Assembly (NCBI RefSeq): GCF_054482595.1
Contig: NZ_CM137008.1
DNA length: 64,000 nt
Direction: 5' to 3' (one strand)
The notes beneath the pieces are model-generated. The model did no database searches and had not been told where the DNA came from. It saw nothing but the letters and a program-made list of their open reading frames with translations. Positions 4,371 through 53,107 of the stretch are shown piece by piece. Made by a program: the position numbers and the translations under genes. Every line of letters starts with the position of its first letter. The first letter of the stretch is position 1.

Positions 4371-4744
4371 TGTTTCGCCCACGGATGTTTACCCAGGGTA
4401 ATGTTATTTACCGTTCTGTAATTGTCGCGGGCCATCAGGCCGGTTGCCCGGCGGGCCCGGAGGATATCAATACTGTTTATTAACTGAGAACGAGTACAGA
4501 CGCTGAATCCCGGCTGGTCGGTACGCACCAGTGCGTATTTTTCAACGAGAAAGTTCACCGCATCACACAGTGAAATGCCTGCCTCAATATGCTGCTCAAT
4601 CACACGTTCATCAGCGAACGGTGTGTCATTCAGTGTGAGGCCGTAATGCTGGTCCAGCAGTCGGGTGAGCAGTGTCTGCCAGATGGTGACGGGAGACTGG
4701 CAATGCGATGCCTCCCGTACGTGTGTATCGGGTAATGTGTTCAT
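4367..4744 (-). CDS. cbtA: CbtA/YeeV-family type IV toxin (cytoskeleton-targeting)
   Basis: Start set at internal ATG 4744 ([14 protein letters not shown]...); near-identical over most of its length to K-12 CbtA as I recall it (...[52 protein letters not shown]...). The ORF-track N-extension is rejected. Confidence 0.85.
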
Positions 4745-4833
4745 ACTGAAGATTTTCCTGATATGCAGAGATGAAAAATGGAAAAGTGGCGTGGTGAAAG
4801 CACCAGGCCGGAGAAGAAGGTTATTCTGGAGAG

Positions 4834-5202
4834 TTACTTTTTCGTTTCGGGCGTCGGATAAACAGCCATATAAACGTAGCCACAACTGCCGAGGGTGTCG
4901 GCTTCGCAGGTCAGCCTTTTTGCATACAGCGTGACGGTATGCTGATGGCGGGGATTCAGTTCACCGCTGGTGAGCATGAGTTCCAGTTGTTTCATCAGCA
5001 GCGGAAAGGCCTGGTCCAGATGGTACGCATCCGCGTCGCTGAACCGGCCTCTGATACCGGCGCGGTCTGCAAGGTAATGCAACCGGTTACCCTCCTGCAC
5101 CAGACGTGCCCCAAAACAGGGCGTCACGGTGCAGGGCAGTCCCCACCAGGTGCGGTCGTTATTGTCGTCGGGAAGCGTTGTCCCGGGGAGTGTGTCTGAC
5201 AC
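4834..5202 (-). CDS. cbeA: CbeA/YeeU-family antitoxin
   Basis: 122-aa ORF immediately upstream of the toxin; [50 protein letters not shown]... matches the YeeU/YfjZ/YafW family. Confidence 0.85.
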
Positions 5203-5281
5203 GATAAAATCCTCACAGAAAATTGGTTAAGAATGGTCCGGTGGTGGCGATAATTCTGCTCTTCTGAATGCCCTTCCAGAC

Positions 5282-5503
5282 TCAGTTCAGGGTGACGCTC
5301 ATCAGCCGGACATACGGACCAAAACTGTCCTTACGGCGTTCTGCAAACACAGCCAGCACACCGGGAATATCCTGTACTTCACGGCCGGTATATGTATCCG
5401 TGCTACCGTGCCAGCGGTATTTACCGGTACAGAACGGAAAAAGACGGGATGCAGGATGCTGACGGTGAATACGCATGGCTTCACCACGGGTGATGATTTT
5501 CAT
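5282..5503 (-). CDS. YeeT/YpjJ-like DUF987 protein
   Basis: 73 aa; MKIITRGEAMRIHRQHPASRLFPFCTGKYRWHGSTDTYTGREVQDIPGVLAVFAERR; conserved partner upstream of cbeA. Confidence 0.75.
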   Translation of the reverse strand: MKIITRGEAMRIHRQHPASRLFPFCTGKYRWHGSTDTYTGREVQDIPGVLAVFAERRKDSFGPYVRLMSVTLN

Positions 5504-28512: not shown

Positions 28513-28563
28513 TCACCTCGCCAGAACCTACCAGAATATGATGTTGGTGGTAATGACTCCAAC

Positions 28564-29067
28564 TTATTGATAGTGTTTTATGTTCAGATAATGCCCGATG
28601 ACTTTGTCATGCAGCTCCACCGATTTTGAGAACGACAGCGACTTCCGTCCCAGCCGTGCCAGGTGCTGCCTCAGATTCAGGTTATGCCGCTCAATTCGCT
28701 GCGTATATCGCTTGCTGATTACGTGCAGCTTTCCCTTCAGGCGGGATTCATACAGCGGCCAGCCATCCGTCATCCATATCACCACGTCAAAGGGTGACAG
28801 CAGGCTCATAAGACGCCCCAGCGTCGCCATAGTGCGTTCACCGAATACGTGCGCAACAACCGTCTTCCGGAGACTGTCATACGCGTAAAACAGCCAGCGC
28901 TGGCGCGATTTAGCCCCGACATAGCCCCACTGTTCGTCCATTTCCGCGCAGACGATGACGTCACTGCCCGGTTGTATGCGCGAGGTTACCGACTGCGGCC
29001 TGAGTTTTTTAAGTGACGTAAAATCGTGTTGAGGCCAACGCCCATAATGCGGGCTGTTGCCCGGCAT
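28564..29067 (-). CDS. insB: IS1 InsB
   Basis: 167-aa ORF; the functional transposase would be the InsAB' frameshift fusion. Confidence 0.9.
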
Positions 29068-29261
29068 CCAACGCCATTCATGGCCATATCAATGATTTTC
29101 TGGTGCGTACCGGGTTGAGAAGCGGTGTAAGTGAACTGCAGTTGCCATGTTTTACGGCAGTGAGAGCAGAGATAGCGCTGATGTCCGGCGGTGCTTTTGC
29201 CGTTACGCACCACCCCGTCAGTAGCTGAACAGGAGGGACAGCTGATAGAAACAGAAGCCAC
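28986..29261 (-). CDS. insA: IS1 InsA
   Basis: 91 aa; [40 protein letters not shown]... Confidence 0.9.
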
Positions 29262-29396
29262 TGGAGCACCTCAAAAACACCATCATACACTAAATCAGTA
29301 AGTTGGCAGCATCACCCGCAGGACTTAGGTGCCGTAGCCTTAGTACCAAAAGGCGATACCTCTGGCGCTGACCGTAAAGGTCTTTTCAATCGTTCA

Positions 29397-29843
29397 TTGT
29401 TCAAATATGACCAGGAAAAAGATATTTATATTTGCCCGATGGGTGAAGAACTTCAGAACCGATTTACGATGGTTGAGGATGGTTTAGAACAGCAAATGTA
29501 CTTTAACAATATTGCCTGTCGCGATTGCAGTCAGCGGTCAAGGTGCACCACATCAAAACGCGATCCGAGGCGTATAAAGCGCTGGGTTCATGAAGCAGAA
29601 ATGGAAGACATGCAAGCCAGGCTTAATGCATCGCCACAAACAGCTGTCGTGCGAAAGCAAACGGTAGAGCATCCGTTCGGGACAATTAAGATGTGGATGG
29701 GAGCGACTCACTTCCTGACGCAACGGTTTAAAAACGTCAGCACAGAAATCAGTCTGCATGTACTGGCTTATAACCTGAAGAGGATGATGTCCATCTGGGG
29801 GGCCGAAGGATTGGCCATTAAGCTGCGAGAACGATGCAGCTAG
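29397..29843 (+). pseudogene. DDE transposase C-terminal fragment (IS5/IS1182-like), truncated at the IS1 junction
   Basis: ...HPFGTIKMWMGATHFLTQRFKNVSTEISLHVLAYNLKRMMSI is a typical DDE transposase C-terminus; the N-terminal half is absent. Confidence 0.5.
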
Positions 29844-30167
29844 CGGCAGTGGCCGCTTTAACTCCTAATAACTGGCCATTAGTACTCCATATCAAGCCAC
29901 AAAGTCTCGTTTTGCCTCAACATACAAATCACTGCGAATACAGCCCATATCAGGAATATCTTGCATCCCTGCTGGTGTTAGTCCTCAGATACTGAAAAAA
30001 CCGAGTTTTTACACAGCCTGGGCACGAAGCGGACCGCCTGAAGCGCAGCAAGGTCTGCTTTGAACTCACAGCGAAGAGCAGAATATACCGGGAGATATCC
30101 TCTTTCATGAGTTGGCAGCCTCTCTCGCATAATATCGAAAACACGGGAGAGGCCGTTACAGCCGCCG

Positions 30168-30932
30168 TTAGTTAGCACGGAATTCCTGGACGGTATCCCA
30201 TGCCACCTGCTGCAGCGCTTTGGCGGTTTGCTCGGTCATATCGCTGTCGGCAGGCAGTGCGCCGCCTATCGGTGACTGGTCATACAGCGTGGCGAACAGC
30301 ACGCTGGCAGCCAGATAGGTTCCCGCCAGCGAGGGGTGATTTCCATCGCTATGATACAGATTGATTTCAGGATGCGTCTTAATTGCGTTACTGAAGGCCA
30401 GCCCGACCGGCGCGACGTATCCCCCGGTTTTACTGGCTATATTCAGATAGGCTTTCTCCAGTTTTTCAGTTTGCTCGGGTTTATCCTTGCTGGCCCAGGT
30501 CATAAAATAAACCACACGCGAGCCCTCTTTGTGAGCCATATCTGCCATCTTGACGGCGGACTCCGTGAAATAGTGACGCGAATCTTTTTTAGCGGAAAAA
30601 GGCTCTGTTGAATTCCCCTGAAATATCACCACGTCCCATTTTTGCAGCGTATTCTGGAATTCAAGATTCGGAAGGTGCCAGCCTAAACGTCCAGAAGAAA
30701 TGGTGATTCCCCGGAACATATAGTCTTTAGCGCCATTCGGTAACAGCGAACGGCTGAGATCGCGCAGTCGGGTATTTATATTATTGTTATAATGTGTATA
30801 TGAATTTCCGTAGAGCGCAATGGATTTATTGACTCCGCTCAGTTTATCCTGCGGTTTGGCTGCAATAATCGTATCGGCCTGCGCGTCGACCATCAGCGCC
30901 AGTCCTGCCAGCAACAACATGATTTTTTTCAT
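30168..30932 (-). CDS. secreted SGNH/GDSL-type hydrolase (esterase-like)
   Basis: Start set at ATG 30932 (MKKIMLLLAGLALMVDAQA signal); family assignment tentative. Confidence 0.5.
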   Translation of the reverse strand: MKKIMLLLAGLALMVDAQADTIIAAKPQDKLSGVNKSIALYGNSYTHYNNNINTRLRDLSRSLLPNGAKDYMFRGITISSGRLGWHLPNLEFQNTLQKWDVVIFQGNSTEPFSAKKDSRHYFTESAVKMADMAHKEGSRVVYFMTWASKDKPEQTEKLEKAYLNIASKTGGYVAPVGLAFSNAIKTHPEINLYHSDGNHPSLAGTYLAASVLFATLYDQSPIGGALPADSDMTEQTAKALQQVAWDTVQEFRAN

Positions 30933-30942
30933 TATTCTTTCC

Positions 30943-31992
30943 TCAGAAGTCGTAGCGCAACCCGACGATAATGGCGTCATCGTTGACCTTCTCGTTTTTA
31001 CTGGCCAGCGTATTAAGGTAAGTTGCTGATAAATACACATTCTTAGCTAAGGTTAGCTGCGATTCAATTCGCCAGCCCTCGTGTTCGTACACATCCTCGT
31101 CGGCTTCATCCAGGATGCTGTACCCGCCAAGCACTTTGAATTCTTTGGTGAATTGATAGGAGGCAACGGAATCGAAACTCGTATAGTCATTGTCAGATTT
31201 ATTGTCTCTTTCTATGGAGACCTTACCCGCCGTTACGGCTAATGACAAATCGCTATAATCGAACTGCAGCCCGCCCATTACCTGGCTGTGCTTCTTGCGG
31301 CCGTCGGTGGTTTTTACGCCGTCCTGACGGTTATATTGACTGACGGCAATCGCCGGTGTGATTTTTACGTCGCCGAATTTAATCATCTTGCGATAACTGG
31401 CCATCATGCCGTTATCAAGTGCATCGTTGTCGCTATTGCCATTTCCAAAAACGTAAGCCAGTTGCACCTGATGCCCGCTAAAATCACCGTTCCATTGCAG
31501 GGTGCCATCCTGACGGTTAAATTGGTAAGAATCGTCAATAGTGGTAATACCGTAGTTATATACGTTTGGCGTAAAGTTTTTATATTTGTCCGTCATGCGC
31601 ATGACCTGATATAACGGGTTTTTAGTACGACCGGCAATCAGCTCGCCATATTTAGCATGAGAAAGCCCCAGATAGGCGTAACGGGCGTCGAGATCTTTAT
31701 CTTTGGTTTTATTATCATCTTTTTCAGTACGAACCTGCCACTCCAGGCGACCGACAAGTTTAGTATCTTCCAGTAAAGGGAGGTCGCGGGTTAAATAAAT
31801 CCCTAAGCGCCCCCCTATTTGGCTACGGGAGTCATCATTTGCGAATGATGCTTCTCCATTCGCTAACTGCCACTCAATACGCCCGTAAATATCCAGCGTG
31901 GTGGCTTTATCCTCATAAACGCTAATCGCCAGCGCTGACGTGCTAGCCCCAGATAAGGCAATGAATAATAATGTTTTGGCTTTAATGCTCAT
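30943..31992 (-). CDS. outer-membrane beta-barrel porin
   Basis: 349 aa, signal peptide (MSIKAKTLLFIALSGASTSALA), alternating hydrophobic pattern, C-terminal ...GLRYDF with terminal Phe. Confidence 0.6.
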   Translation of the reverse strand: MSIKAKTLLFIALSGASTSALAISVYEDKATTLDIYGRIEWQLANGEASFANDDSRSQIGGRLGIYLTRDLPLLEDTKLVGRLEWQVRTEKDDNKTKDKDLDARYAYLGLSHAKYGELIAGRTKNPLYQVMRMTDKYKNFTPNVYNYGITTIDDSYQFNRQDGTLQWNGDFSGHQVQLAYVFGNGNSDNDALDNGMMASYRKMIKFGDVKITPAIAVSQYNRQDGVKTTDGRKKHSQVMGGLQFDYSDLSLAVTAGKVSIERDNKSDNDYTSFDSVASYQFTKEFKVLGGYSILDEADEDVYEHEGWRIESQLTLAKNVYLSATYLNTLASKNEKVNDDAIIVGLRYDF

Positions 31993-32410
31993 GCTGTTCT
32001 TCCCCTTTAAAAAATAAATATGTTCGCCCTTGATGCAGGATTAAATAGTTGTTATCAGGCGCCATTAATTTTTAGTTACATTAATGCAGAGCGAATACGG
32101 GAATTGCGTTTTCTCATAATAAAATGTGATTTTACGCACATAAAATAGGGCTTAATGGCTGGCGTTGTTATTTGTGAAGATTTCATTGAAAATAAATAAT
32201 AGCGATTTAATTGATTCTCTCCGAACTGAGATATAAATGGCGAATTTATGTTAATCTCATCACGTTTTTCATATTGTGATCCCCGGAACATATGGGAAAT
32301 GCATATTCCCCTGTTTACGCAGTGAGAATTGCTCCAGAATACTCGTTACGCAGTTAAATTTGATTTGAATGATATGCTGTTATCAGCGACGTACGTCACA
32401 GGAGTTTATA

Positions 32411-33781
32411 ATGCCAGGCAGTCAAAGTTCGGTATTTGATTCAGAATTGTATTCCTCTCTCTTCACGCAGCCGGAGATGAAATCAATCTGGTCCGATGAT
32501 AATCTTCTTCGCTGTTGGCTGACCTTTGAAGCAACCATCGCGCATGTGCAGACTGAGTTAGGTATTATTCCCCCTGAAGCCGCCGCGGAAATTTCCGCCG
32601 CCTGCCAGACGCTGAAAATAGACTGGCCGCGCCTCGCCAGGGAAACGCGTTCCGTCGGTATGGCGATTAAGCCTCTGGTTGATCAAATTGCCGATGCGGG
32701 TTCCCCTTTGGTCAAAAAATACCTTCACTGGGGCTGCACGACTCAGGATCTGCTGGATACCGCCCTGGCCATGCGCATGAAGCAAACCCTGCAATTACTG
32801 CGCAGACAGTTGGTGCAGTTGGGCGAAACGTTGAAAGCTATGGCGCTTGAGCACCGACATACGGTGATGGTCGCCAGAACGAATTCCGTCGATGCTTCCG
32901 CCACGACGTGGGGGCTACACGTCAGCAGCTATCTGTCCGAGCTAACCCGCCACCTTCAGCGCCTGGATCGCCTCTACCCGGCAGCGACTACCGGCCTGTT
33001 TGGTGGCGCGGTCGGCAACCTGGCCTCCGTCGGCAGCCAGGGAATGGCGATACGTAAGCAATTAATGGGCGCGTTAGGGTTGTCATGCCCTGTCGGTATG
33101 AGCAATGCCAGTCAGGATCATGTAGTCGAAGTGGTGCAGTTTTTTGCCCTGGTGCATGGCACGCTGTGTCGCATGGCCAACGACGTTGAAACGCAGGGCC
33201 GCACGTCCGTGGGCGAGTTGCGTGAAGGCGAAGGCGGTGGAGGATCCAGTACGATGCCACACAAGACGAATCCCCGCGCGAGCAATATGATCCAGACGCT
33301 TTCCCGCATGGGCTGGAACTATGCCTCTGGTGCAACCAGCCTTCTCGATCAGTGTGACGTGCGTGCTGCCTCCGCCCGCGTACTCAACTGGACGCTGGTA
33401 CCGGAGTCGGCGCTGGCCTTGTCGGCCAGCCTTGAACGTGCTGTCCGGTTAATTACGCATCTGGTGGTGGACAAAGAGAAGATGCGCAGCAACTTCGCCG
33501 CTTCAAAGAACTTCATTATGTCGGAATCCGTCACCATGGTATTGGCTGAGAAAATCGGGCGTGGTGCCGCTTACGATCTGATGAAAGCGTTATTAAAAGA
33601 CGCAGACGGCTCTAAAGACCTGTTGCAGTGCATGCTGGAAAATCAGACCGTTATTGACGCGCTAACTGAGTCGGAGATTGTTGCTGCTTGCGATCCATTG
33701 TCTTATCTGGGCTGCAATGACGCGCTGATCGAAGAAACCGTCATAGCCTTCGACGATTACATTCATGTCCGGACGGCGTAG
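32411..33781 (+). CDS. fumarate-lyase-superfamily enzyme (adenylosuccinate-lyase / 3-carboxymuconate-cycloisomerase-like)
   Basis: ATG 32411 preceded by AGGAG; signature GSSTMPHKTNP (GSSxMPxKxN); substrate not inferable from sequence. Confidence 0.75.
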   Translation: MPGSQSSVFDSELYSSLFTQPEMKSIWSDDNLLRCWLTFEATIAHVQTELGIIPPEAAAEISAACQTLKIDWPRLARETRSVGMAIKPLVDQIADAGSPLVKKYLHWGCTTQDLLDTALAMRMKQTLQLLRRQLVQLGETLKAMALEHRHTVMVARTNSVDASATTWGLHVSSYLSELTRHLQRLDRLYPAATTGLFGGAVGNLASVGSQGMAIRKQLMGALGLSCPVGMSNASQDHVVEVVQFFALVHGTLCRMANDVETQGRTSVGELREGEGGGGSSTMPHKTNPRASNMIQTLSRMGWNYASGATSLLDQCDVRAASARVLNWTLVPESALALSASLERAVRLITHLVVDKEKMRSNFAASKNFIMSESVTMVLAEKIGRGAAYDLMKALLKDADGSKDLLQCMLENQTVIDALTESEIVAACDPLSYLGCNDALIEETVIAFDDYIHVRTA

Positions 33782-33834
33782 TCCAGAGCCATTCGCTTCC
33801 TGCCGAAAGCAGGTGTGCCGACAGGAAGCGGTCA

Positions 33835-34722
33835 TTATCCAGGAAGAGGTGAAAAGGTTTCAAAAAAGACAAACAGTTCCTCCAGTTGCTCGAAATTGCC
33901 CTCGCCTTCGCCTTTTTCATAGGCCAGATGCAACACCAGCTCAATAAAAAAGAAACCTACGATGCGGCTTTTGAATACGGATTGCGTATCGCTCGGCAAC
34001 ACAAACTGCAGATTACAAAATTTGCCGTACGGGTTGGACTCCGAGTTAGTAATCAGCACTACCGTCGCGCCTTTTTTACAACACCATTCGGTAACGCGAA
34101 TCACTACCCGGTTAAAACGGTAGTAGGAGAAAACGATCAGCACGTCCTGATCCGTAACGGTCAGCAATGACTTCGGCAACTCCCCAACGTCCATAGAAAG
34201 CAATGTAACCCGATCGCGGAAATATTTAATCAGCGTAGTAAAATGTTTCGCCATCGCATAGGAAGACGCGGGACCGATTACGTATATATGTCGGTTGGTA
34301 TTCAAAATAATGTCGATAAATTTATCCAGACTGTCAATATTGATATTATCTTTAAAATTCTCGAACAAGGTCGTAACATTCTTATTAAATTCGGAAACAA
34401 TTTGTTCCGTGGTAATCTTTTCTTTTACCTGAATGCGTGATGCCAGCTCAAACGGCGGCACCATTTTTTGCAGTGTCAGCGTATTTTCCAATGCCCGACG
34501 GAAGTCAGCGTAGCCGATAAATCCCAGCTTATTTAAAAAACGCCCAACCGTTGCTTTACTCACCATTGCATTGCGGGCAATGTCGATGATGCCGTGAAAA
34601 GGGAGTTCATTAAAATGTTCACGCATATACGCGTCAAGACGGTGTTCTGACTCGGTTAGTGAACATAACAGCACGGTTTTTGAAATATAGTCCTCTAATG
34701 TTAAAGGGGTATTTTTTTTCAT
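33835..34722 (-). CDS. RpiR/MurR-family transcriptional regulator (HTH + SIS domain)
   Basis: 295 aa; N-terminal HTH (...IIDIARNAMVSKATVGRFLNKLGFIGY...), C-terminal SIS-like region; divergent from the transporter gene. Confidence 0.7.
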   Translation of the reverse strand: MKKNTPLTLEDYISKTVLLCSLTESEHRLDAYMREHFNELPFHGIIDIARNAMVSKATVGRFLNKLGFIGYADFRRALENTLTLQKMVPPFELASRIQVKEKITTEQIVSEFNKNVTTLFENFKDNINIDSLDKFIDIILNTNRHIYVIGPASSYAMAKHFTTLIKYFRDRVTLLSMDVGELPKSLLTVTDQDVLIVFSYYRFNRVVIRVTEWCCKKGATVVLITNSESNPYGKFCNLQFVLPSDTQSVFKSRIVGFFFIELVLHLAYEKGEGEGNFEQLEELFVFFETFSPLPG

Positions 34723-35005
34723 AATTGTCGTCCTTACACACTACGGATAAAAAGATACTATATTCAGTATAGAGAATAACCTTATCACATAATAATGCTA
34801 TGCTATAGCCTTCCGTAAAGTGATTGACATATTTCCTGTTATGAGATCATGCGCACAAACCCCAGCGGGAAAAGCAATTTCTCATAGCTCACATTACCCT
34901 GATTCGATCATGATTTCATTACGGCATCAGTCTCTGAATTTATAGAGAATTAGGCGATCTAAATATAACTAGCCGTCATATATAGGAAAACAAAAGGACG
35001 ATCTC

Positions 35006-36382
35006 ATGACCGCATTTGTAATCGCAATCGTGATCACTATCATTGCAGCATGGTTAATCATCAAGAACTTCCAACCTCAGACGGTATTGCTGCTGGCTGG
35101 TTTGTCTTTACTGACCATTACTGCTGTCTTCTATCCTGATAATAGCATTCTCTACGGTAAGGCTAAATCAACCGGTTCCACCTGGCTGGATATCTTTACG
35201 TTTGCCAAAAATTCACTCTCCACACAGATCGCCGGTATCGGTTTGATCATCATGGCCGCGGGCGGCTTTGCCAGTTATATGGATCATATCAAAGCCTCCA
35301 ATGCAATGGTGAACGTCTGCATTCGTCCCCTGCAAATCATCAAGGCGCCCTACGTGATCCTGGCTGTGGGGTATATTTGCGCACAGTTGCTGCACGTCGC
35401 GATTTCCAGCGCCGCCGGGCTGGCGATGATGTTATTAGTGACGTTCTTCCCGGTGTTGGTACGACTGGGTGTCAGTAAAGCAGCGGCGGCGGCGATGATC
35501 GGTCTGTGCGCCTTTATGGACTTAGGCCCGGCGGTCGGCACGGCCAACCTGGCGGCTAAACATGCCGGTATGGAAGCCGCCGTTTACTTTGCGCACTATC
35601 AGATGCCGGTGGCTGTTGCCGTTATGTTGGTAGTGTCGGTGCTGATTTTCTTTACCGCCAAATATTATGACAAGAAAGATGGTCACGTGATGACCAGCCA
35701 GGTGGCGGACGACACGACGCCTCAGAGTGAGGATAGCGAAAAAGTGCCGGGGCTGTATGCTTTCCTGCCTGTATTCCCTGTGATTCTGGTGCTGGTCTTT
35801 AGCCCGTTGGTCATCTCCACCATTAAAATCGACGTAGTTACCGCCATGATTGTCGGCACAATACTGGCGTTCGTCTGCGAACTGTTCGTTAAACGCGACT
35901 TCCGTGCCTGCTGTAAAGGTGTACAGGTATTTTTTAAAGGAATGGGCGGGATGTTTACCAGCGTGGTTTCATTGTTAGTGTGTGCGGATATCTACGCGCA
36001 GGGAATGCAAAAAATCGGCGCGGTGGATTACCTGTTGGAGATGGTGCAGAACGCGGGCTTTGGCTTTGCCAGCATGACCGTGGTGATGACGCTGCTGGTA
36101 GGTATAACCGCTGTACTGACGGGCTCCGGGGTTGCGGCATTTTTCTCTTTCTCCGGCATGGCGCCTGCTATCGCCACTAAATTTGGCGAAAGCGCTGTAC
36201 ATATGATTCTGCCGATGCAACTGATGGCTGGAATGGGACGTTCCATTTCTCCCGTCGCAGGGATCATCATTGCGGTCAGCAAAGCCGGTGAATGTTCACC
36301 GTTCATGATAGTGCGCAGGACCTTAATTCCGGCGCTCGGCGGCATGCTTACCATGTTGCTGGCTAACTACCTGTTGTTCTGA
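35006..36382 (+). CDS. DcuC-family (C4-dicarboxylate-type) membrane transporter
   Basis: 458-aa polytopic membrane protein; size and composition resemble DcuC as I recall it. Confidence 0.55.
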   Translation: MTAFVIAIVITIIAAWLIIKNFQPQTVLLLAGLSLLTITAVFYPDNSILYGKAKSTGSTWLDIFTFAKNSLSTQIAGIGLIIMAAGGFASYMDHIKASNAMVNVCIRPLQIIKAPYVILAVGYICAQLLHVAISSAAGLAMMLLVTFFPVLVRLGVSKAAAAAMIGLCAFMDLGPAVGTANLAAKHAGMEAAVYFAHYQMPVAVAVMLVVSVLIFFTAKYYDKKDGHVMTSQVADDTTPQSEDSEKVPGLYAFLPVFPVILVLVFSPLVISTIKIDVVTAMIVGTILAFVCELFVKRDFRACCKGVQVFFKGMGGMFTSVVSLLVCADIYAQGMQKIGAVDYLLEMVQNAGFGFASMTVVMTLLVGITAVLTGSGVAAFFSFSGMAPAIATKFGESAVHMILPMQLMAGMGRSISPVAGIIIAVSKAGECSPFMIVRRTLIPALGGMLTMLLANYLLF

Positions 36383-36469
36383 AGGACGTGTCGTCAGTGC
36401 GATGCCATTAAATCCAGAGAGCCAGGCGAGAGTACTTTGTTGTCAACATCAGTTAGCCGGACGTAAGTT

Positions 36470-38164
36470 ATGACCCACGAAATCACAGACAATTTACTTT
36501 ATATCCCTTATGCAGGCCCGGTATTACTGGAATCCCCGCTGCTGAACAAAGGCAGCGGGTTTACTGAAACAGAACGCGCAATGTTTAACCTGAGCGGGCT
36601 GTTGCCCGCAGCGGTTGAGACGATTGAAGAGCAGTCGCTGCGGGCCTATCAGCAATTCCTGGATATCAAGTCGGATATTGCCCGTCATATCTTTCTGCGC
36701 AATATTCAGGATACCAACGAGACGCTGTTTTATCACCTTGTGAGCAAGCACCTGGTGGAAATGATGCCGATTATTTATACCCCGGTAGTCGGACATGCGT
36801 GTGAACACTTTTCCGACATCTATCGCCGCGCCAGGGGATTATTCATCGCCTGGCCGGACCGGCATATGATCGACGAAATATTGCATAACGCCACAAAGCA
36901 GAATATTTCGGTGATTGTCGTCACTGACGGGGAGCGGATCCTCGGCCTGGGCGATCAGGGAATTGGCGGCATGGGGATTCCTATCGGCAAACTTTCGTTG
37001 TACACCGCCTGCGGTGGTATTAAGCCGTCGCATACGCTGCCAATCTTATTGGATGCGGGAACGAACAATTCCCAATTGCTCAATGACCCTTTGTATATGG
37101 GTTGGCGTCATCCGCGCATCACCGGCGACGCATATTTTGAGTTCGTCGAGATGTTTATCCGCGCGGTTAAGCGCCGTTGGCCGGACGTGCTATTACAGTT
37201 CGAAGATTTTGCCCAACAGACGGCGATGCCGCTGCTGACCCGCTATCGTGATGAGATCTGCTGTTTTAATGATGATATCCAGGGTACCGCAGCGGTGACT
37301 TTGGGATGCCTGATGGCGGCAAGCCAGGCCTCCCAACGTCGGTTATGTGACCAAACGGTAGTCTTCCTGGGCGCGGGATCGGCCGGATGTGGCATTGCCG
37401 AACATATCGTCACGCAGATGGTGGCTGAAGGGTTGACCGATGAGCAGGCCCGTTCACGCATTTTCATGGTGGATCGCTTTGGCCTGCTTACGGACGATCA
37501 AACTAATCAGGCTCCTTTCCAGTCACCGCTGGCGCAGCCGCGGTCGCGTTTGGCGAGCTGGGGCGGTCAGCAGGAGGCGTACTCGCTGATGGACGTGGTA
37601 AGCCAGGCTAAACCGTCCGTTCTGATTGGCGTCAGCGGGCAGCCAGGACTATTCAGCGAAGCGGTGATCGGGGAAATGTATCGTCACTGTTCGCAACCGA
37701 TAGTTATGCCACTTTCCAACCCAACCTCGCGCGCAGAGGCACGGCCGGAAGATATTCTGCGCTGGACCGATGGTAACGCGTTAATCGCCACCGGCAGCCC
37801 GTTCGAGCCGGTAAGCCACGGGGGAAAATTGTATCCTGTTGCACAATGCAATAATGTTTATGTCTTCCCTGGTGTGGGTCTCGGCGTGATGGTTAGCCGT
37901 GCCACACGCGTCACGGATAACATGATGATGGCGGCCAGCCGCACGCTGGCAAGTTGTTCGCCGCTGGTGCGCGACGGGCGTGGTCCGCTGTTGCCCAGTA
38001 TTAATGACATCCGGCAGGTGACGCAGGCCATCGCCCTTGATGTTGCTCTGGCTGCTCAACGTGATGGCGTCGCCGTAAATATCCCGCAGGAAACCTTGCA
38101 ACATAACATTTCGAGCGGATTCTGGGAGCCGCAGTATCTTCAGTACAAGCGCACCTCATTCTGA
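36470..38164 (+). CDS. NAD-dependent malic enzyme (MaeA/SfcA paralog)
   Basis: 564 aa; ...[22 protein letters not shown]...[34 protein letters not shown]...[13 protein letters not shown]... tracks E. coli MaeA closely but is clearly diverged. Confidence 0.85.
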
Positions 38165-38280
38165 TAAGCAGTCTGTAGCGGGAAGATCTTGATACCGTTG
38201 GTAACGGCGGTATCAATTCCGTAAAAGCCGCATGGCCCGTATCTGTTCCGAGTGTATCCGGTGTTATGGTAGCGCAATCG

Positions 38281-38700
38281 TCACCGGGCATAGCGACCCG
38301 GCAGATTCATACACAGTTTCGTCTCCTCGGCATAGAAATGCGGCAGGTTCCGCTGATAGTCAGACGGCGTTACACCACAAAGCATTTTGAAATCTTTGCT
38401 GAAATGGGCCTGATCATGGAAATCGAGGTCACAAGCAAGGGTGCGCAAATCGACCACGCCGTGATGGATGCGCCGGCACGCTTCATTTACTCTGAGAATA
38501 CGGACAAACGATTTCCAGGAAACGCCAATCCTCTCCTGGCAGAAGCGGTTAATGTGCCGGGCGCTGTATGACGTCATCTCGGACAAGCTATTAAGACGAA
38601 TGCCCCCGTTCAGCGGGGAAGCATGCGTCAGTACCTGACGCAGCAGCGGTTTTTCCTCCAACACAGCGAAGGTGGAAGTTGAGAATAACTCCTTAAGCAA
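38281..38700 (-). pseudogene. AraC-family regulator, HTH domain only (sensor domain cut off by IS1 copy B)
   Basis: 139-aa ORF with an AraC-type HTH; an in-frame stop lies between it and the IS1 end at 38821. Confidence 0.55.
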
Positions 38701-38820
38701 AGGTAGCCCGCAGAAGTATACTGAACGCTATAAAGAATGTAGTGGAGATGCTGGTTGTGAACAGCAGATCCGTAAGGATATGGCGAAAGAATCGGCGGAA
38801 AATGTTCTTAAGTTGAAGTC

Positions 38821-39588
38821 GGTGATGCTGCCAACTTACTGATTTAGTGTATGATGGTGTTTTTGAGGTGCTCCAGTGGCTTCTGTTTCTATCAGCTGTC
38901 CCTCCTGTTCAGCTACTGACGGGGTGGTGCGTAACGGCAAAAGCACCGCCGGACATCAGCGCTATCTCTGCTCTCACTGCCGTAAAACATGGCAACTGCA
39001 GTTCACTTACACCGCTTCTCAACCCGGTACGCACCAGAAAATCATTGATATGGCCATGAATGGCGTTGGATGCCGGGCAACAGCCCGCATTATGGGCGTT
39101 GGCCTCAACACGATTTTACGTCACTTAAAAAACTCAGGCCGCAGTCGGTAACCTCGCGCATACAACCGGGCAGTGACGTCATCGTCTGCGCGGAAATGGA
39201 CGAACAGTGGGGCTATGTCGGGGCTAAATCGCGCCAGCGCTGGCTGTTTTACGCGTATGACAGGCTCCGGAAGACGGTTGTTGCGCACGTATTCGGTGAA
39301 CGCACTATGGCGACGCTGGGGCGTCTTATGAGGCTGCTGTCACCCTTTGACGTGGTGATATGGATGACGGATGGCTGGCCGCTGTATGAATCCCGCCTGA
39401 AGGGAAAGCTGCACGTAATCAGCAAGCGATATACGCAGCGAATTGAGCGGCATAACCTGAATCTGAGGCAGCACCTGGCACGGCTGGGACGGAAGTCGCT
39501 GTCGTTCTCAAAATCGGTGGAGCTGCATGACAAAGTCATCGGGCATTATCTGAACATAAAACACTATCAATAAGTTGGAGTCATTACC
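38821..39588 (+). mobile_element. IS1 (complete, 768 bp), copy B, inverted relative to copy A
   Basis: Starts GGTGATGCTGCCAACTTACTGAT at 38821 and ends ...ATCAATAAGTTGGAGTCATTACC at 39588; insA 38876-39151, insB 39070-39573. InsB differs from copy A at two residues (S65R, S88R), so the copies are not identical. Confidence 0.95.
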
Positions 39589-39594
39589 GACACA

Positions 39595-42500
39595 TCAGAA
39601 ACGATATTCCACACTCAACATGGCAGATGTATTATGGTATCCATGTTCTCCAAGTTGAATGCCTGCATCAGCCCGGAATGCTACTTCTGGTGTTATCATT
39701 CCCACAACACCACCATTTATTTCTCCGATATCACGCGCACCATCCTGGTATATACTTACACCATTCATACTGGTGCCGAAAACACGACTATTGTGCAACC
39801 AGTGTGCCTCCACAAATGGTCTGAACGGAACCGCATACCGCGTATTTTTACCGTTTTTGCTGGTAAGCCATGTTCTTGCTCCCAGGCGGGTGAGAATATT
39901 TCCGTTACCGGTATTTTCAATACTGGTTCCGTTACTTTCATGATATTTGTCTGATTTTACATTCATCCGGACAACCTGAAGCTGCGGCTGAACATACCAT
40001 TCATGACTTCCCTTGTAATTGTCGGTAAACTCTCCAGCCTTCCATGAATATCCTGCTTCCAGAGATACCGTAAACCCTTTTGACTTCCATGACTCAGCAG
40101 GCAGCCGTTCTCCATTTATATGATTATCAAACCAGCTGTATTGCAGCCAGCTATCAAGATAAGAACCATTGTGTGTTTCATCATTGGCATACCATGTTGC
40201 ATAAAGACCCGCTGTGTATCCATTCATTCTTCCTTCCGAATGGTATCCGGTGCTCAGGGCATTCGTACTGTTATTATTATGACCATAGCCAGCCATCATA
40301 CCTGTATGCCAGCGATCGGTACCATTCAGGCTCCACTGAGCTATATCTCCCCCTATTAACACAACGTAGCTATTCCCCCGGGTTCTCAGCTGACTACTGT
40401 TGTCACGCCAGCGATTATGTTTTCCTTTATTATACATCCAGATACCTGCTTCATTTTCTTCTCCTGTCATGTGGCTGATATACAACTCCTGTCCCTGTCG
40501 TTCATACAGATTCGTTACAAACAGATTATTTGCAGCAGCAATACTGGCAACATAGCTACCTGCCTCAGGACGCAAATTATTATCATGGCTTTCCGGTACA
40601 GCTTCAGGTTGTGGTACAGGAATGTCTTTTCTGCTAATCAGATACCAGTTAGTGCTGTTAATCCCCTGACCACGTTTCAGTATGTAATCATAAGCTCCGG
40701 CTGTAATACGTTCCGTCTGAATGAATTCAGCATTATCAGCATTGCCACTGACGTGAATCACTTCAATCCCATTAAGTGTCTCTGCACCAGTACCACCGGC
40801 CTGAGTAACAGCGACACGGGTACGGCCACTGGCATTACCTTTAATCACCAGACGATCTGTTTTCGAATTGTCACCACCTGTTTCTGTCTGGAGGAGAATA
40901 AGTCCATTTCTGCCAGTGTAATTCCCTCCGACAGTCAGTATATTACCCGGCATATATGTAGTGAGATCGACTATACCACTATTGCTCAGATTTCCTGCAA
41001 CGCCCCCAAACCCGGAGAGTTTGCCCTGCTCTTCAACAATGACCTGGTTACTGCCGAGCATCACCGGTGAATCTGCGTTCCCCAGTATCACTGTCCCCTG
41101 AATAATATCTGTCATCCCGGTCCATTTTGCGTTATCGCTAATGTTCAGTGCACCTGCTCCCGTCTTGCGAACATTACCATAACCACTGATATTGTTGGTA
41201 AGCTGCCATGCTGATGTACTGTTCAGAGTTAATGTGCCATAGTTATCAACAAAGGCTGTCCCCAGATTATCAGCCGTGGATACAGCCAAATGAGCCCCCT
41301 TATTCACGGTAAAAACACCGGAAAAATTACGATTATTACCCGTTATATCAAGCATTCCCCCATTTATGTTCAGAGAACCATCCCCTGCAATAGTACCTGC
41401 AGATTCTCCTCCATTATTCAGTATCAGACTTCCGCCATGAATGTTCAGCACAGAGCCTGCAGCCGTCAGTAGTTTGCTTATTGTCTGAGGATACCCATTC
41501 ATATCCAGTTCTGCGCCACGGGATAAATATAAATACTCAGTCCGACCAAGAGCATCAGGTGCAGCAAGAATTAATACGCCAGATTTAACCTCTGTATTTC
41601 CTGTATAATTGTTTGTTGCAGAAAGTATAAGAGTACCATTACCTGATTTTGTCAGACTTTTGCCGTCCCAGCCATCATATAATAAAGGTGAAAGATTATC
41701 GGAAAGAGAAACGCCTATGTTCAGAGTGGCATCTTTTTCTATATTAAAGGTTCCATATCCCATCCCTTTTGTATTATTCCATCTCAGCATGGATATCAGT
41801 TTGTTATCGTCGTCATTTAAAGACGTATAAACATAACTTTCAGCACCTTCTGTCAGTAATACATTGTATTGTACAATGTGACTATTATCAGCGATCGAGA
41901 TACCTGTGTCTGACGACAATAATGTGTAATAGTCCTGAGTCCAGTTCTTAATTGATGTGTCTATATTAAGCCATGAATCACTTTTTAATGTAATAGTATT
42001 TGCGTGAACATTAGCATTTCCTACAGACAGGTTCATAGATGCGTCTTCATCAATACTTATATTTCCGTTAAAAATGGAGTTCTTGCCTGACAGATAAACA
42101 GATGAGCCATTCCCAATCATTAGCCCACCATTAATTGCTGTTGCGTTATTGATGTTTTTAATAATTAATTCATTTGTACCATTAACAGGTATACTAGCTA
42201 GTTTAATATCACCATTAATCACAGAATCTGAATAAATATCTAATGAATTATACCCGCCAGAAAAAATTATTGATGTATTATAAGCATCTTTTTGGCTATT
42301 ATATAATCCTGAAAGATTACCATGATTATTAATATGGATATCTTCTCCATAAACAGAGCAACCACCGTCGGGGCCATATCCCCCCTGAACAATACCGTTA
42401 TTATTCAAAGTGATTTGATTTCCAGAAATAGCATCTCCCCCTTGTTTTATTCCATATCCTCCAGATATCATGTTGTCGTTAGTAATGAAAAGATTACTAC

Positions 42501-43092
42501 CATTAATACCATCACCACCGTTTACGCCATTACCGCCCAATATTCCTCCGGAATTATGCACTGTAATATTGCTACCGGTTACACCGGAACCACCTGTCCC
42601 ACCTACATCATCACCTCCGTATATACTTCTGTAATTATCAACTATAATATCATCCCCGCTTAACCCTGCACCTCCGCTACTTCCTGAGCCACCAAGACCA
42701 TTACCCCCATATACATTTCTGTAATTGTTTATAGATATTTTGTTGCCACTAACAGCAATTCCACCATTATATCCATCTCCTCCCCAAACACTACCATTAT
42801 TATTTAGCGTAAAGTTTTCACCGTAGACACCTGCACCACCGATTGATGTATTGCTTGTTCCTCCTTTGATGTTAATACTGCTTTCAACAGATAGTATATT
42901 TTGAGTATAACTTGTTTTATACGGCACGCTGATATTAAGCGCCGCGTTTCCATCAACACCTGTAATACTCCTGGTTATACTTTCAGGTATACCATTACCA
43001 TTCAGTTGTATTGTTTGCGCACCAGAAAAATGAGACTGCACAGAATAAAGTATACTGACCAGAAATTGTAAAATTCGTATATTCTTATTCAT
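39595..43092 (-). CDS. autotransporter adhesin (type Va), AIDA/pertactin-like Gly-rich passenger
   Basis: 1165 aa; signal peptide; repeated GG-x-G and NxS/T passenger repeats; C-terminal beta-barrel ending ...SAMLSVEYRF; AT-rich gene. Confidence 0.8.
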   Translation of the reverse strand: MNKNIRILQFLVSILYSVQSHFSGAQTIQLNGNGIPESITRSITGVDGNAALNISVPYKTSYTQNILSVESSINIKGGTSNTSIGGAGVYGENFTLNNNGSVWGGDGYNGGIAVSGNKISINNYRNVYGGNGLGGSGSSGGAGLSGDDIIVDNYRSIYGGDDVGGTGGSGVTGSNITVHNSGGILGGNGVNGGDGINGSNLFITNDNMISGGYGIKQGGDAISGNQITLNNNGIVQGGYGPDGGCSVYGEDIHINNHGNLSGLYNSQKDAYNTSIIFSGGYNSLDIYSDSVINGDIKLASIPVNGTNELIIKNINNATAINGGLMIGNGSSVYLSGKNSIFNGNISIDEDASMNLSVGNANVHANTITLKSDSWLNIDTSIKNWTQDYYTLLSSDTGISIADNSHIVQYNVLLTEGAESYVYTSLNDDDNKLISMLRWNNTKGMGYGTFNIEKDATLNIGVSLSDNLSPLLYDGWDGKSLTKSGNGTLILSATNNYTGNTEVKSGVLILAAPDALGRTEYLYLSRGAELDMNGYPQTISKLLTAAGSVLNIHGGSLILNNGGESAGTIAGDGSLNINGGMLDITGNNRNFSGVFTVNKGAHLAVSTADNLGTAFVDNYGTLTLNSTSAWQLTNNISGYGNVRKTGAGALNISDNAKWTGMTDIIQGTVILGNADSPVMLGSNQVIVEEQGKLSGFGGVAGNLSNSGIVDLTTYMPGNILTVGGNYTGRNGLILLQTETGGDNSKTDRLVIKGNASGRTRVAVTQAGGTGAETLNGIEVIHVSGNADNAEFIQTERITAGAYDYILKRGQGINSTNWYLISRKDIPVPQPEAVPESHDNNLRPEAGSYVASIAAANNLFVTNLYERQGQELYISHMTGEENEAGIWMYNKGKHNRWRDNSSQLRTRGNSYVVLIGGDIAQWSLNGTDRWHTGMMAGYGHNNNSTNALSTGYHSEGRMNGYTAGLYATWYANDETHNGSYLDSWLQYSWFDNHINGERLPAESWKSKGFTVSLEAGYSWKAGEFTDNYKGSHEWYVQPQLQVVRMNVKSDKYHESNGTSIENTGNGNILTRLGARTWLTSKNGKNTRYAVPFRPFVEAHWLHNSRVFGTSMNGVSIYQDGARDIGEINGGVVGMITPEVAFRADAGIQLGEHGYHNTSAMLSVEYRF

Positions 43093-51122: not shown

Positions 51123-52412
51123 TCAATCAGGTAAGGGATATCCTCCCTTACCCTTAATCTTCCCTGGCTGCATGTGCATATCTTTCAGTTACTGTGAGAT
51201 ACCTGTATTACGGTGTCTTTTTAGCTCACAGAAATATCAGACAGCCCGTTTCAGTGTTTTATTACCTTAATCTTTTTACGGCATTCTTCAGCTCTTGCGC
51301 ATGCTATTTTTTCACCTGTTTCATAACATTGCTGGCAGCCTAATCCAAATTTCATCGCCATATCATAACCTTCCCGAAAACCTCGGAACCACGCGTTACG
51401 AAGGTATTCATCATATTCCCCGCAGTCAATAATAACCATTTTATTTTCATGGGATTTTCCGGTATTCTCACTCATTTTCGATACCTCAATGCTTACAACA
51501 GAAAAGTATACTTTTACGAAGTTCGCCTTTGCAGGACTATATAAAGTTATCACTGGATGCAAGAGCCGGAAATCCTGTATATCAGGATCAACTTTGTAAT
51601 TCAATAACATATTATCCAGTGAAAAATTAAGTATATTTAAGCTGGGGAAGGAGAAGGGGGACTTGATTTGATAGTTTCATCAATAATATTATTTTACCTC
51701 CTCCATTATTCATTCAGGCCTGGTTCCGGGCGTAATTCCGATTTCTCTGTTGAAGCGATGCATTTATATTTAAATATTCACCTGTCATTGAATTTTATTT
51801 GAAATAGGAGAAAATCTCCTCCTGTACTACAGATAACCCGGAATGTTCCTCGAAAGAAAATTCTGGCGCAGAATTCACGCCCGGTTCTGTTCAACATCAT
51901 GCAGGATAACGATACCGAAACGTTAAACTCTGGCAATTCTCGTGTTATACACAGGCAGGAGTGATTACTACGGTAAGAATTGCTGAAAAGGGGAGAACAC
52001 TGAAGGCCTTATTCGCGAAGAATAAAGGAGACATTTCATGTAAATTATTATCAGAGATAACCTTCTCCAGGCGCTTTTGTTCGCTTCCTGAATTGCTACC
52101 TGATACATATTTACGGGATGCCAGCCTAGCGACTATAACTCCGAAAAGACCGATTATTGTATTGCGTGCATCCGGCATGTTTACAATGTACGCTGGTATC
52201 TAACGGAGTCTGACACAGATGCACGCAGGTGTGTATTTTAACGTAATTATCCGGAAAGAACAGTATATTTTAATGCGGGAGTTGCATGAGCGGTATACGG
52301 GAGAAACTATCAGACCATGGGAGCTACAGAGGTGCTTAAGTCTCGTAACATTATAATCTGCTCACCTGACTGGTGCTATTCTCACCTCAACACCAATGCA
52401 CAAATAGCCTAG

Positions 52413-53107
<695 letters not shown>

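What the first reader, a model, noticed from the sequence alone, without database searches (positions are those of the whole stretch)
38281..38700. Transcription factors decapitated at IS junctions
An AraC-family HTH domain (38281-38700) and a LysR-family substrate-binding domain (53717-54298) each lack their other half exactly where an IS element begins (IS1 copy B and IS3 respectively). This documents IS-driven erosion and may leave dominant-negative or constitutive fragments.
Basis: seen in the sequence. Interest (0 to 1): 0.25.

Follow-up and report, generated by a model that had tools for sequence, protein, structure and literature searches.

The report
Two truncated regulator genes, ordinary decay
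Two regulator genes in this E. coli genomic island are dead remnants; one was cut exactly by an insertion sequence, while the other lost its front half earlier, at a junction with a leftover toxin-gene fragment, so this is ordinary gene decay.

Summary
Both fragments are real. ORF 38281-38700 (-) carries a complete AraC-type DNA-binding domain. ORF 53717-54298 (-) carries a LysR substrate-binding domain. Close full-length relatives have two domains: 290 aa in Trabulsiella, and 309 aa (AllS-like) on E. coli ColV plasmids.

The AraC claim is wrong in detail. AraC-derived DNA ends at 38656, which is 164 bp short of IS1 (38821). The 164 bp between them is the 5' remnant of an orphan cdiA-CT toxin module on the opposite strand, with its VENN motif at 38678-38689. 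IS1 cuts that remnant, not the AraC gene. At least 15 E. coli genomes have no IS1 at this site. There the cdiA-CT continues to 233 aa and a DUF7878 ORF follows, yet the AraC gene is truncated at the same base. So the truncation came before IS1.

Neither IS has a target-site duplication, and the missing halves are not in the window, so rearrangements followed. Neither remnant has a recognisable promoter or ribosome-binding site upstream. RefSeq already marks the LysR piece as a pseudogene.

This is ordinary IS-driven and deletion-driven erosion of a mosaic island, of low interest.

The parts
38281..38656 (-). Remnant of an AraC/XylS-family regulator gene: codons 167-290 of a 290-aa orthologue plus the stop codon. 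This is the complete two-HTH DNA-binding domain. The N-terminal DUF6597 regulatory domain is missing.
   Evidence: Pfam HTH_18/HTH_AraC. 92%/88% aa identity to the C-terminal part of the 290-aa Trabulsiella proteins. DNA homology starts sharply at 38656 and ends about 4-12 nt after the stop. It aligns to stand-alone DBD structures and to MarA over their whole length.
38657..38820 (+). 5' remnant of an orphan cdiA-CT toxin module: 6 codons, the VENN motif (38678-38689), and the first ~44 codons of the CT. IS1 cuts its 3' end. Its antisense supplies the first 15 codons (TTG 38700 or GTG 38664) of the annotated AraC-fragment ORF.
   Evidence: tblastn gives 76% identity to an orphan CT downstream of an 11.7-kb hemagglutinin-repeat (CdiA-type) gene on Salmonella Rubislaw pATCC10717, and 34-38% to Cronobacter 'VENN motif pre-toxin domain' proteins. 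The sequence continues as a 233-aa ORF in E. coli AH25 and WP2-S18-ESBL-08, which have no IS1 there.
38821..39588 (+). IS1 copy B (768 bp), with its left inverted repeat abutting the cdiA-CT remnant.
   Evidence: InsA/InsB Pfam hits. IRL pattern. Ends located, 2 mismatches to copy A, and no matching 9-bp flanks.
28549..29316 (-). IS1 copy A, inverted relative to copy B. Together the two bracket the 9.5-kb module 29317-38820.
   Evidence: PGAP annotation of the near-identical record.
53717..54327 (-). Remnant of an AllS-like LysR-type regulator gene: codons 108-309 of 309 plus the stop. The winged-HTH domain and the linker are missing.
   Evidence: Pfam LysR_substrate. 99.5% DNA identity to the intact 309-aa gene (P0005; L010, L014), ending at 54327/54328. 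NCBIfam's best match for the intact protein is AllS, below the cutoff. PGAP labels it 'incomplete; missing N-terminus'.
54328..55637 (+). IS3-family insertion sequence, 1,310 bp. From memory of its terminal repeats and length it is IS629-like. Its left end abuts the LysR break, and its transposase reads away from the remnant.
   Evidence: Terminal repeats TGAACCGCCCCGGG at both ends; flanks GGG versus GTC, so no 3-bp duplication. OrfA/OrfB Pfam and NCBIfam transpos_IS3.
52114..54328 (.). Segment 99.6% identical to pAPEC-O2-211A-ColV (an IS3-family remnant plus the 3' two-thirds of the LysR gene). On the plasmid the gene is intact.
   Evidence: blastn of L014 against the window; annotation.

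Best explanation
Both ORFs are non-functional remnants of two-domain transcription factors, left by successive rearrangements in a mosaic E. coli genomic island on the nanS/fimB side of the chromosome. (1) LysR remnant: a 1,310-bp IS3-family element entered an AllS-like regulator gene between codons 107 and 108. A later IS-associated deletion or recombination removed the 5' third of the gene and its divergent ankyrin/allH/fdrA/allG-like operon. A transposase remnant now lies on the far side of the IS. (2) AraC remnant: an earlier event joined codon 167 of a 290-aa AraC-family gene to a point 6 codons upstream of the VENN motif of a cdiA gene. It was most simply a single deletion running from inside the AraC gene to near the 3' end of a neighbouring cdiA. 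That left a DBD-only AraC stub back to back with a solitary 'orphan' cdiA-CT/immunity module. Only afterwards, in a subset of lineages, did IS1 land in the cdiA-CT 50 codons after its GTG start. IS1-mediated deletion or inversion then removed the rest of the toxin/immunity pair. Shown: the break points, the order of events (AraC truncation before IS1), and the absence of the missing halves. Inferred: that the first event was a deletion rather than a cassette insertion, and that neither remnant is expressed.
For: AraC: the closest relatives are 290-aa two-domain proteins in Trabulsiella. The DNA alignment shows ~93% identity from the stop codon up to 38656 and no similarity beyond. tblastn finds residues 1-161 nowhere in the window or within 7 kb in AH25 or WP2-S18-ESBL-08. 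No E. coli complete genome has DNA like the N-terminal half. Positions 38657-38820 encode ...AKVEVENNSLSKGSPQKYTERYKECSGDAGCEQQIRKDMAKESAENVLKLKS, which is 76% identical to a Salmonella orphan CT lying downstream of a giant CdiA-type gene. Of 63 E. coli genomes with this junction, at least 45 run into IS1 at 38821. At least 15 instead continue as a 233-aa ORF plus a DUF7878 ORF, with 100% identity up to 38820 and the same truncated AraC. The IS1 far flank differs among the window, W2-5 and a plasmid, and no 9-bp duplication exists. LysR: the intact 309-aa allele is known (P0005, 352 member sequences) and lies next to an ankyrin/AllH/AllF/AllG operon on contigs and on a ColV plasmid. Identity (4 mismatches in 763 nt) ends at 54327/54328, where the IS repeat starts. 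In a sample of 60 of the 198 records holding this stretch, 16 carry the IS junction and 44 continue past it. There is no 3-bp duplication and no other part of the gene or operon in the window. Expression: no promoter-like site upstream of either remnant on its strand, and PGAP calls the LysR piece a pseudogene.
Against: PGAP annotates the AraC stub as an ordinary CDS of 127 or 139 aa. It retains a complete MarA-sized DNA-binding domain, so function cannot be excluded from sequence alone. The consensus promoter scan is crude and would miss weak or read-through transcription, for example antisense to the cdiA-CT or outward from IS1. The deletion scenario for the AraC/cdiA junction is not demonstrated, because no genome with an intact AraC gene next to a cdiBAI locus was found.
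Confidence: 0.85

Rival explanations
1. One reading: IS1 copy B itself inserted into the AraC-family gene and removed its N-terminal half.
For: IS1 lies only 121 bp from the ORF start, and at least 45 of 63 genomes carry the AraC stub next to IS1.
Against: 164 bp of unrelated cdiA-CT coding sequence separates AraC-derived DNA from IS1. At least 15 genomes lack IS1 at this site yet have the identical truncation.
Confidence: 0.02
2. The AraC gene was interrupted by insertion or recombination of a mobile orphan cdiA-CT/cdiI cassette rather than by a deletion. Its N-terminal half once lay beyond the cassette and was later lost.
For: Orphan CT/immunity modules are known to move and to occur in arrays (PMC3150448; the Rubislaw plasmid array). 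In AH25 an ISKpn26 pseudogene directly follows the DUF7878 ORF and could have removed what lay beyond it.
Against: The N-terminal half is not within 7 kb downstream in AH25 or WP2-S18-ESBL-08, nor anywhere in E. coli complete genomes. No cassette boundary or repeat was seen at the junction. This route needs two events where a deletion needs one.
Confidence: 0.2
3. The fragments are expressed and active. The DBD-only AraC stub acts as a ligand-independent regulator, as isolated AraC-family DNA-binding domains and MarA/SoxS do. The HTH-less LysR stub poisons oligomers of the intact plasmid-borne copy.
For: The AraC stub keeps the entire DNA-binding domain, starting at the interdomain boundary, and is annotated as a CDS. 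Strain GPEC673 carries both the truncated chromosomal LysR copy and a plasmid copy of the same stretch, which I did not inspect for intactness.
Against: No promoter-like site upstream on the coding strand. The start codons are TTG/GTG supplied by foreign antisense DNA, without a correctly spaced Shine-Dalgarno (my reading). The LysR stub abuts an IS end whose transposase reads the other way. All copies are ~100% identical, so there is no evidence of purifying selection since truncation.
Confidence: 0.06
4. They are natural short single-domain proteins (MarA-like, or a stand-alone effector-binding protein).
For: Natural DBD-only AraC-family proteins exist (MarA, SoxS), and the stub aligns to MarA end to end.
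Against: Orthologues at 88-92% identity are 290 aa, the identical LysR allele exists at 309 aa, and nucleotide identity breaks inside both genes.
Confidence: 0.01

Closest known systems
IS-mediated pseudogenes in E. coli/Shigella genomic islands (IS1, IS3-family/IS629-type insertions followed by adjacent deletion or inter-IS recombination)
   Same: A gene is cut to the base at an IS terminal repeat. There is no target-site duplication, the other half of the gene is missing, and the junction is inherited by many strains and replicons.
   Different: Nothing unusual for the LysR remnant. For the AraC remnant the IS is not the cutting agent.
Orphan cdiA-CT/cdiI modules of contact-dependent growth inhibition systems (Poole et al. 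2011, PMC3150448)
   Same: A VENN motif is followed by a CT region. There is a small downstream ORF in the position of an immunity gene in the IS1-free genomes. The CT is modular: its N-terminal ~130 aa are shared with a Salmonella orphan, but the C-terminal toxin part differs.
   Different: It is solitary, with no cdiBAI locus upstream. It is fused back to back with half an AraC gene. In the window it is reduced to 164 bp by IS1, with no toxin domain and no immunity gene.
AraC/XylS-family regulators with an N-terminal DUF6597 domain (Trabulsiella 290-aa orthologues); isolated AraC-family DNA-binding domains and MarA/SoxS
   Same: The stub holds the complete ~100-aa two-HTH domain.
   Different: It lacks the regulatory domain and its native start and promoter. 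It is a truncation product, not a natural single-domain member.
AllS (LysR-type activator of the allantoin allD operon) and its paralogue on ColV plasmids next to an ankyrin/allH/fdrA(allF)/allG-like operon
   Same: The remnant is 99.5% identical in DNA to codons 108-309 of that paralogue. NCBIfam's best hit for the intact protein is AllS (268 bits).
   Different: The score is below the AllS equivalog cutoff (372), so it is a paralogue and not AllS. The window copy has no HTH and no target operon.

Membership tests
AraC/XylS family transcription factor | C-terminal ~100-aa DNA-binding domain with two helix-turn-helix motifs | tested here: met
   Pfam HTH_18 64.5 bits (cutoff 33.6) and HTH_AraC 29.7 bits (cutoff 26.6). 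It aligns over the full length of stand-alone DBD structures 3oou and 2k9s and of MarA.
AraC/XylS family transcription factor | N-terminal regulatory/dimerisation domain, as in its own orthologues (DUF6597) | tested here: not met
   Orthologues carry DUF6597 at residues 24-122 (24.6 bits, E=2.8e-5, just under Pfam's 27-bit cutoff; also recorded for P0003). No trace of residues 1-161 in the window in any frame.
LysR-type transcriptional regulator | C-terminal substrate-binding (periplasmic-binding-protein-like) domain | tested here: met
   PF03466 79.6 bits (cutoff 28).
LysR-type transcriptional regulator | N-terminal winged helix-turn-helix (PF00126) | tested here: not met
   No PF00126 hit in the remnant. 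The intact allele P0005 has it. The remnant starts at codon 108.
Orphan cdiA-CT/cdiI module | VENN (pre-toxin) motif marking the start of the variable CT | tested here: met
   VEVENN is encoded at 38672-38689. tblastn hits proteins annotated as VENN motif pre-toxin domain and an orphan downstream of a CdiA-type gene.
Orphan cdiA-CT/cdiI module | Toxin domain and cognate immunity gene immediately downstream | tested here: not met
   In the window IS1 replaces everything after codon 50 and the remainder is absent. In AH25 a 233-aa CT and a 140-aa DUF7878 ORF are present, but toxin and immunity activity are untested.
IS1 | 768-bp element with terminal inverted repeats, insA and insB | tested here: met
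IS1 | 9-bp target-site duplication of a simple insertion | tested here: not met
   The four flanks are GATGTTGGT, CGCAGGACT, GTTGAAGTC and GACACATCA. None match in either orientation.
IS3 family (IS629-like) | Terminal inverted repeats starting TGA, and two overlapping ORFs (HTH_Tnp_1; rve/DDE) joined by a frameshift | tested here: met
   Repeats. Pfam and NCBIfam transpos_IS3 298 bits. PGAP notes a 'programmed frameshift'. The name IS629 is from memory only.
IS3 family (IS629-like) | 3-bp target-site duplication | tested here: not met
   Flanks are GGG versus GTC.

The most novel reading that the evidence does not exclude
The MarA-sized, DBD-only AraC stub is transcribed, either by read-through antisense to the cdiA-CT remnant or from a hybrid promoter at the IS1 end. 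It then acts as a ligand-independent regulator, for instance of the adjacent dicarboxylate/malic-enzyme module that travels with it between chromosomes and plasmids.
Probability: 0.04. Interest if true: 0.35.

Novelty: already known. Interest (0 to 1): 0.1.

Why it matters
It matters little beyond annotation hygiene. RefSeq labels the AraC stub as an ordinary 'helix-turn-helix domain-containing protein', and labels the antisense cdiA-CT stub running into IS1 as a 'hypothetical protein'. Both are better marked as remnants. The locus is also a clean worked example of event ordering. IS-free 'empty-site' genomes show that proximity to an IS does not prove the IS made the cut. It also records traffic of the same segments between ColV-type plasmids and a chromosomal island.

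Tried and rejected
1. I looked for the AraC N-terminal half in other frames of 38657-38820 and elsewhere in the window, using tblastn with word size 2 and E up to 10. Nothing turned up.
2. The word-indexed protein search with the AraC stub gave only three hits. The two informative ones are metagenomic proteins cut by contig ends and lie in an unrelated gene context. The genome-contig scan was what found the Trabulsiella orthologues.
3. I searched for target-site duplications pairing any of the four IS1 flanks, in either orientation, to decide which orientation of the IS1-bracketed module is ancestral. No pair matched.
4. I looked for the remainder of the cdiA-CT/immunity pair beyond IS1 in W2-5 and in plasmid NZ_CP061751.1. 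It is absent.
5. Pfam and NCBIfam give no family for the 233-aa AH25 CT, so its toxin type is unknown.
6. Consensus promoter scans found nothing upstream of either remnant. This is weak negative evidence.
7. I did not run structure prediction or metagenome scans, because they would not change the verdict.

Full report
**Context.** The window is E. coli. It is 100% identical over 24 kb to the chromosome of strain 118C_1_fosA3, apart from two extra IS copies in that record. It lies in a mosaic island next to nanC/nanM and a truncated sialate O-acetylesterase gene near fimB. The island is full of IS1, IS3-family, IS66, ISL3, IS110, IS91 and IS256 elements or remnants, and PGAP flags many partial genes there.

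- ORF 38281-38700 (-), 139 aa, matches Pfam HTH_18 (E=1.1e-17) and HTH_AraC.
- ORF 53717-54298 (-), 193 aa, matches LysR_substrate (E=2.7e-22), starting at profile position 28.
- IS1 occupies 38821-39588. It is 768 bp, with InsA/InsB, and its left repeat GGTGATGCTGCC starts at 38821.
- A 1,310-bp IS3-family element occupies 54328-55637, with TGAACCGCCCCGGG repeats at both ends. NCBIfam scores it at transpos_IS3 298 bits. From memory it resembles IS629; I did not test that name.

**The LysR remnant.** A search with the remnant, extended to the IS junction, found a 309-aa E. coli protein with HTH_1 and LysR_substrate domains. This is P0005, with 352 member sequences, and it differs from the remnant at one residue.
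- The gene for P0005 sits divergently from an ankyrin/AllH/AllF(FdrA)/AllG operon, both on contigs and on pAPEC-O2-211A-ColV. NCBIfam's best match is AllS, at 268 bits against a cutoff of 372, so it is an AllS-like paralogue.
- Base-by-base comparison shows 4 mismatches in 763 nt. Identity ends at window 54327/54328, with one ambiguous base, which is codon 107/108.
- The window shares 2,215 bp (52114-54328, 99.6%) with the ColV plasmid. Nothing of the gene's 5' third or of the operon is in the window.
- The 3-bp flanks of the IS differ (GGG versus GTC), and a transposase remnant lies on its far side. So the insertion was followed by a deletion or by inter-IS recombination.
- In a spread sample of 60 of the 198 E. 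coli records holding this stretch, 16 carry the IS junction and 44 continue past it. The one I inspected is intact.
- PGAP already annotates the window-type copy as 'incomplete; missing N-terminus'.

**The AraC remnant.** The word-indexed protein search gave only two distant, contig-cut relatives. The scan of species-representative genomes found 290-aa orthologues in Trabulsiella guamensis and T. odontotermitis. They are 92% and 88% identical over the shared part and have DUF6597 (E=2.8e-5, just under Pfam's cutoff) plus HTH_18.
- The DNA alignment shows high identity from just past the stop codon up to window 38656 (...GGAAAAACCG, codon 167, 'EKPLL'). Beyond that there is none.
- AraC-derived DNA therefore ends 164 bp before IS1.
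- The annotated start codons (TTG 38700, or GTG 38664 in another PGAP call) lie in foreign sequence.
- The retained 124 residues are a complete DNA-binding domain. They align end to end with stand-alone DBD structures (3oou, 2k9s) and with MarA.

**What the 164 bp is.** On the + strand, 38657-38820 is open and encodes SNTAKVEVENNSLSKGSPQKYTERYKECSGDAGCEQQIRKDMAKESAENVLKLKS.
- tblastn against plasmids hits Cronobacter proteins annotated 'VENN motif pre-toxin domain-containing' (34-38% identity).
- At 76% identity it also hits a 304-aa ORF on Salmonella Rubislaw pATCC10717. That ORF lies in an array of toxin/immunity pairs downstream of an 11.7-kb hemagglutinin-repeat (CdiA-type) gene.
- DNA similarity to that orphan begins at the VENN codons and runs to the IS1 junction.

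This is the 5' end of an orphan cdiA-CT module, as described by Poole et al. 2011 (PMC3150448).

**Order of events.** A junction-spanning query with a strict E-value found 63 E. coli genomes (of 5,426) carrying the AraC/cdiA-CT junction.
- At least 45 continue into IS1 at 38821. At least 15 stop matching exactly there.
- In two of the latter, AH25 and WP2-S18-ESBL-08, there is no IS1. The sequence is identical up to 38820 and continues (...KLKS|CWESGDTAC...) as a 233-aa ORF. A 140-aa DUF7878 ORF follows in the position of an immunity gene, and then an ISKpn26 pseudogene.
- In those genomes the AraC gene is truncated at the same base. Residues 1-161 are not found within 7 kb.
- No E. coli complete genome has DNA resembling the N-terminal half of the orthologue, and plasmids hold only the same stub.

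Hence the AraC truncation predates IS1, and IS1 truncated the toxin remnant. The rest of the cdiA-CT and the DUF7878 ORF are absent from the window and from beyond IS1 in W2-5 and in a plasmid. The far flank of this IS1 differs among the window, W2-5 and the plasmid. None of the four 9-bp IS1 flanks in the window pair up. So IS1-mediated deletion and rearrangement followed the insertion.

**How the AraC/cdiA junction arose.** This is inferred, not shown. The simplest route is one deletion with one end in the AraC gene and the other 6 codons upstream of VENN in a neighbouring cdiA. It would remove the AraC 5' half, cdiB and most of cdiA. The alternative is insertion of a mobile orphan cassette followed by loss of the AraC 5' half. 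That needs more events, but I cannot exclude it.

**Function.** Isolated AraC-family DNA-binding domains can be active (established knowledge; MarA and SoxS are natural examples).
- The consensus scan finds no promoter-like site on the coding strand upstream of either remnant.
- The candidate starts are TTG/GTG without a properly spaced Shine-Dalgarno (my reading).
- The IS transposase next to the LysR stub reads away from it.
- All copies are essentially identical, so selection cannot be assessed.

I rate expression and function as unlikely (about 5%) but untested.

**Verdict.** The finding is real but ordinary: gene decay in an IS-rich island. The LysR half of the claim is confirmed to the base and is already annotated as a pseudogene. 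The AraC half is corrected, because the cut was made at a junction with an orphan cdiA-CT remnant before IS1 arrived, and IS1 cut the toxin remnant instead. Interest is low.

Noticed in passing
window 28549-39588: Two inverted IS1 copies, 2 mismatches apart, bracket a 9.5-kb module: transposase remnant, SGNH hydrolase, porin, fumarase/aspartase-like, MurR/RpiR, DcuC, NAD-malic enzyme, AraC stub and cdiA-CT stub. In W2-5 and most other matching genomes the module lies in the opposite orientation between the same outer flanks (ugpB/esterase side and autotransporter side). That indicates inversion by recombination between the IS1 copies. The module also occurs on plasmids.
   Followed up: partly
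L012:7113-8310 (E. coli AH25); L008:4923-6137 (Salmonella Rubislaw pATCC10717): The intact form of the orphan cdiA-CT (233 aa) shares its first ~130 residues with the Salmonella orphan. It has a different C-terminal part with no Pfam or NCBIfam match, whereas the Salmonella one ends in a TreTu_C toxin domain. It is followed by a DUF7878 ORF, a candidate immunity protein. It is solitary, with no cdiBAI locus upstream.
   Followed up: partly
window 52114-54328: This stretch is 99.6% identical to a segment of pAPEC-O2-211A-ColV, where an IS1 abuts its left end. That implies exchange between ColV-type plasmids and this chromosomal island. Of the 205 matching places in E. coli, 108 are on plasmids.
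   Followed up: partly
window 59725-64000 and about 4400-5300: A dndBCDE DNA-phosphorothioation cluster lies at the right end of the window. A gene annotated as a phosphorothioated-DNA-binding restriction endonuclease lies near the left end, according to PGAP annotation of the near-identical record.
   Followed up: no
window 39595-43092 (-) and 56187-58874 (-): There are two large autotransporter genes, of 1,165 and 895 aa. The stop codon of the first lies 6 bp from the right end of IS1 copy B.
   Followed up: no
window 38672-38842 (+): RefSeq carries a 56-aa 'hypothetical protein' (WP_001470107.1) here. It is a chimera of the cdiA-CT remnant and the first 22 bp of IS1. The AraC stub is given two different start codons in different records (127 and 139 aa).
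   Followed up: yes
L003 (NZ_AP045737.1) versus the window: The otherwise identical dog isolate has two extra IS copies relative to the window. One is an IS1 between the IS3-family remnant and the LysR stub, and the other is an IS3-family element inside the IS66 tnpB. This shows ongoing IS activity in the island.
   Followed up: no
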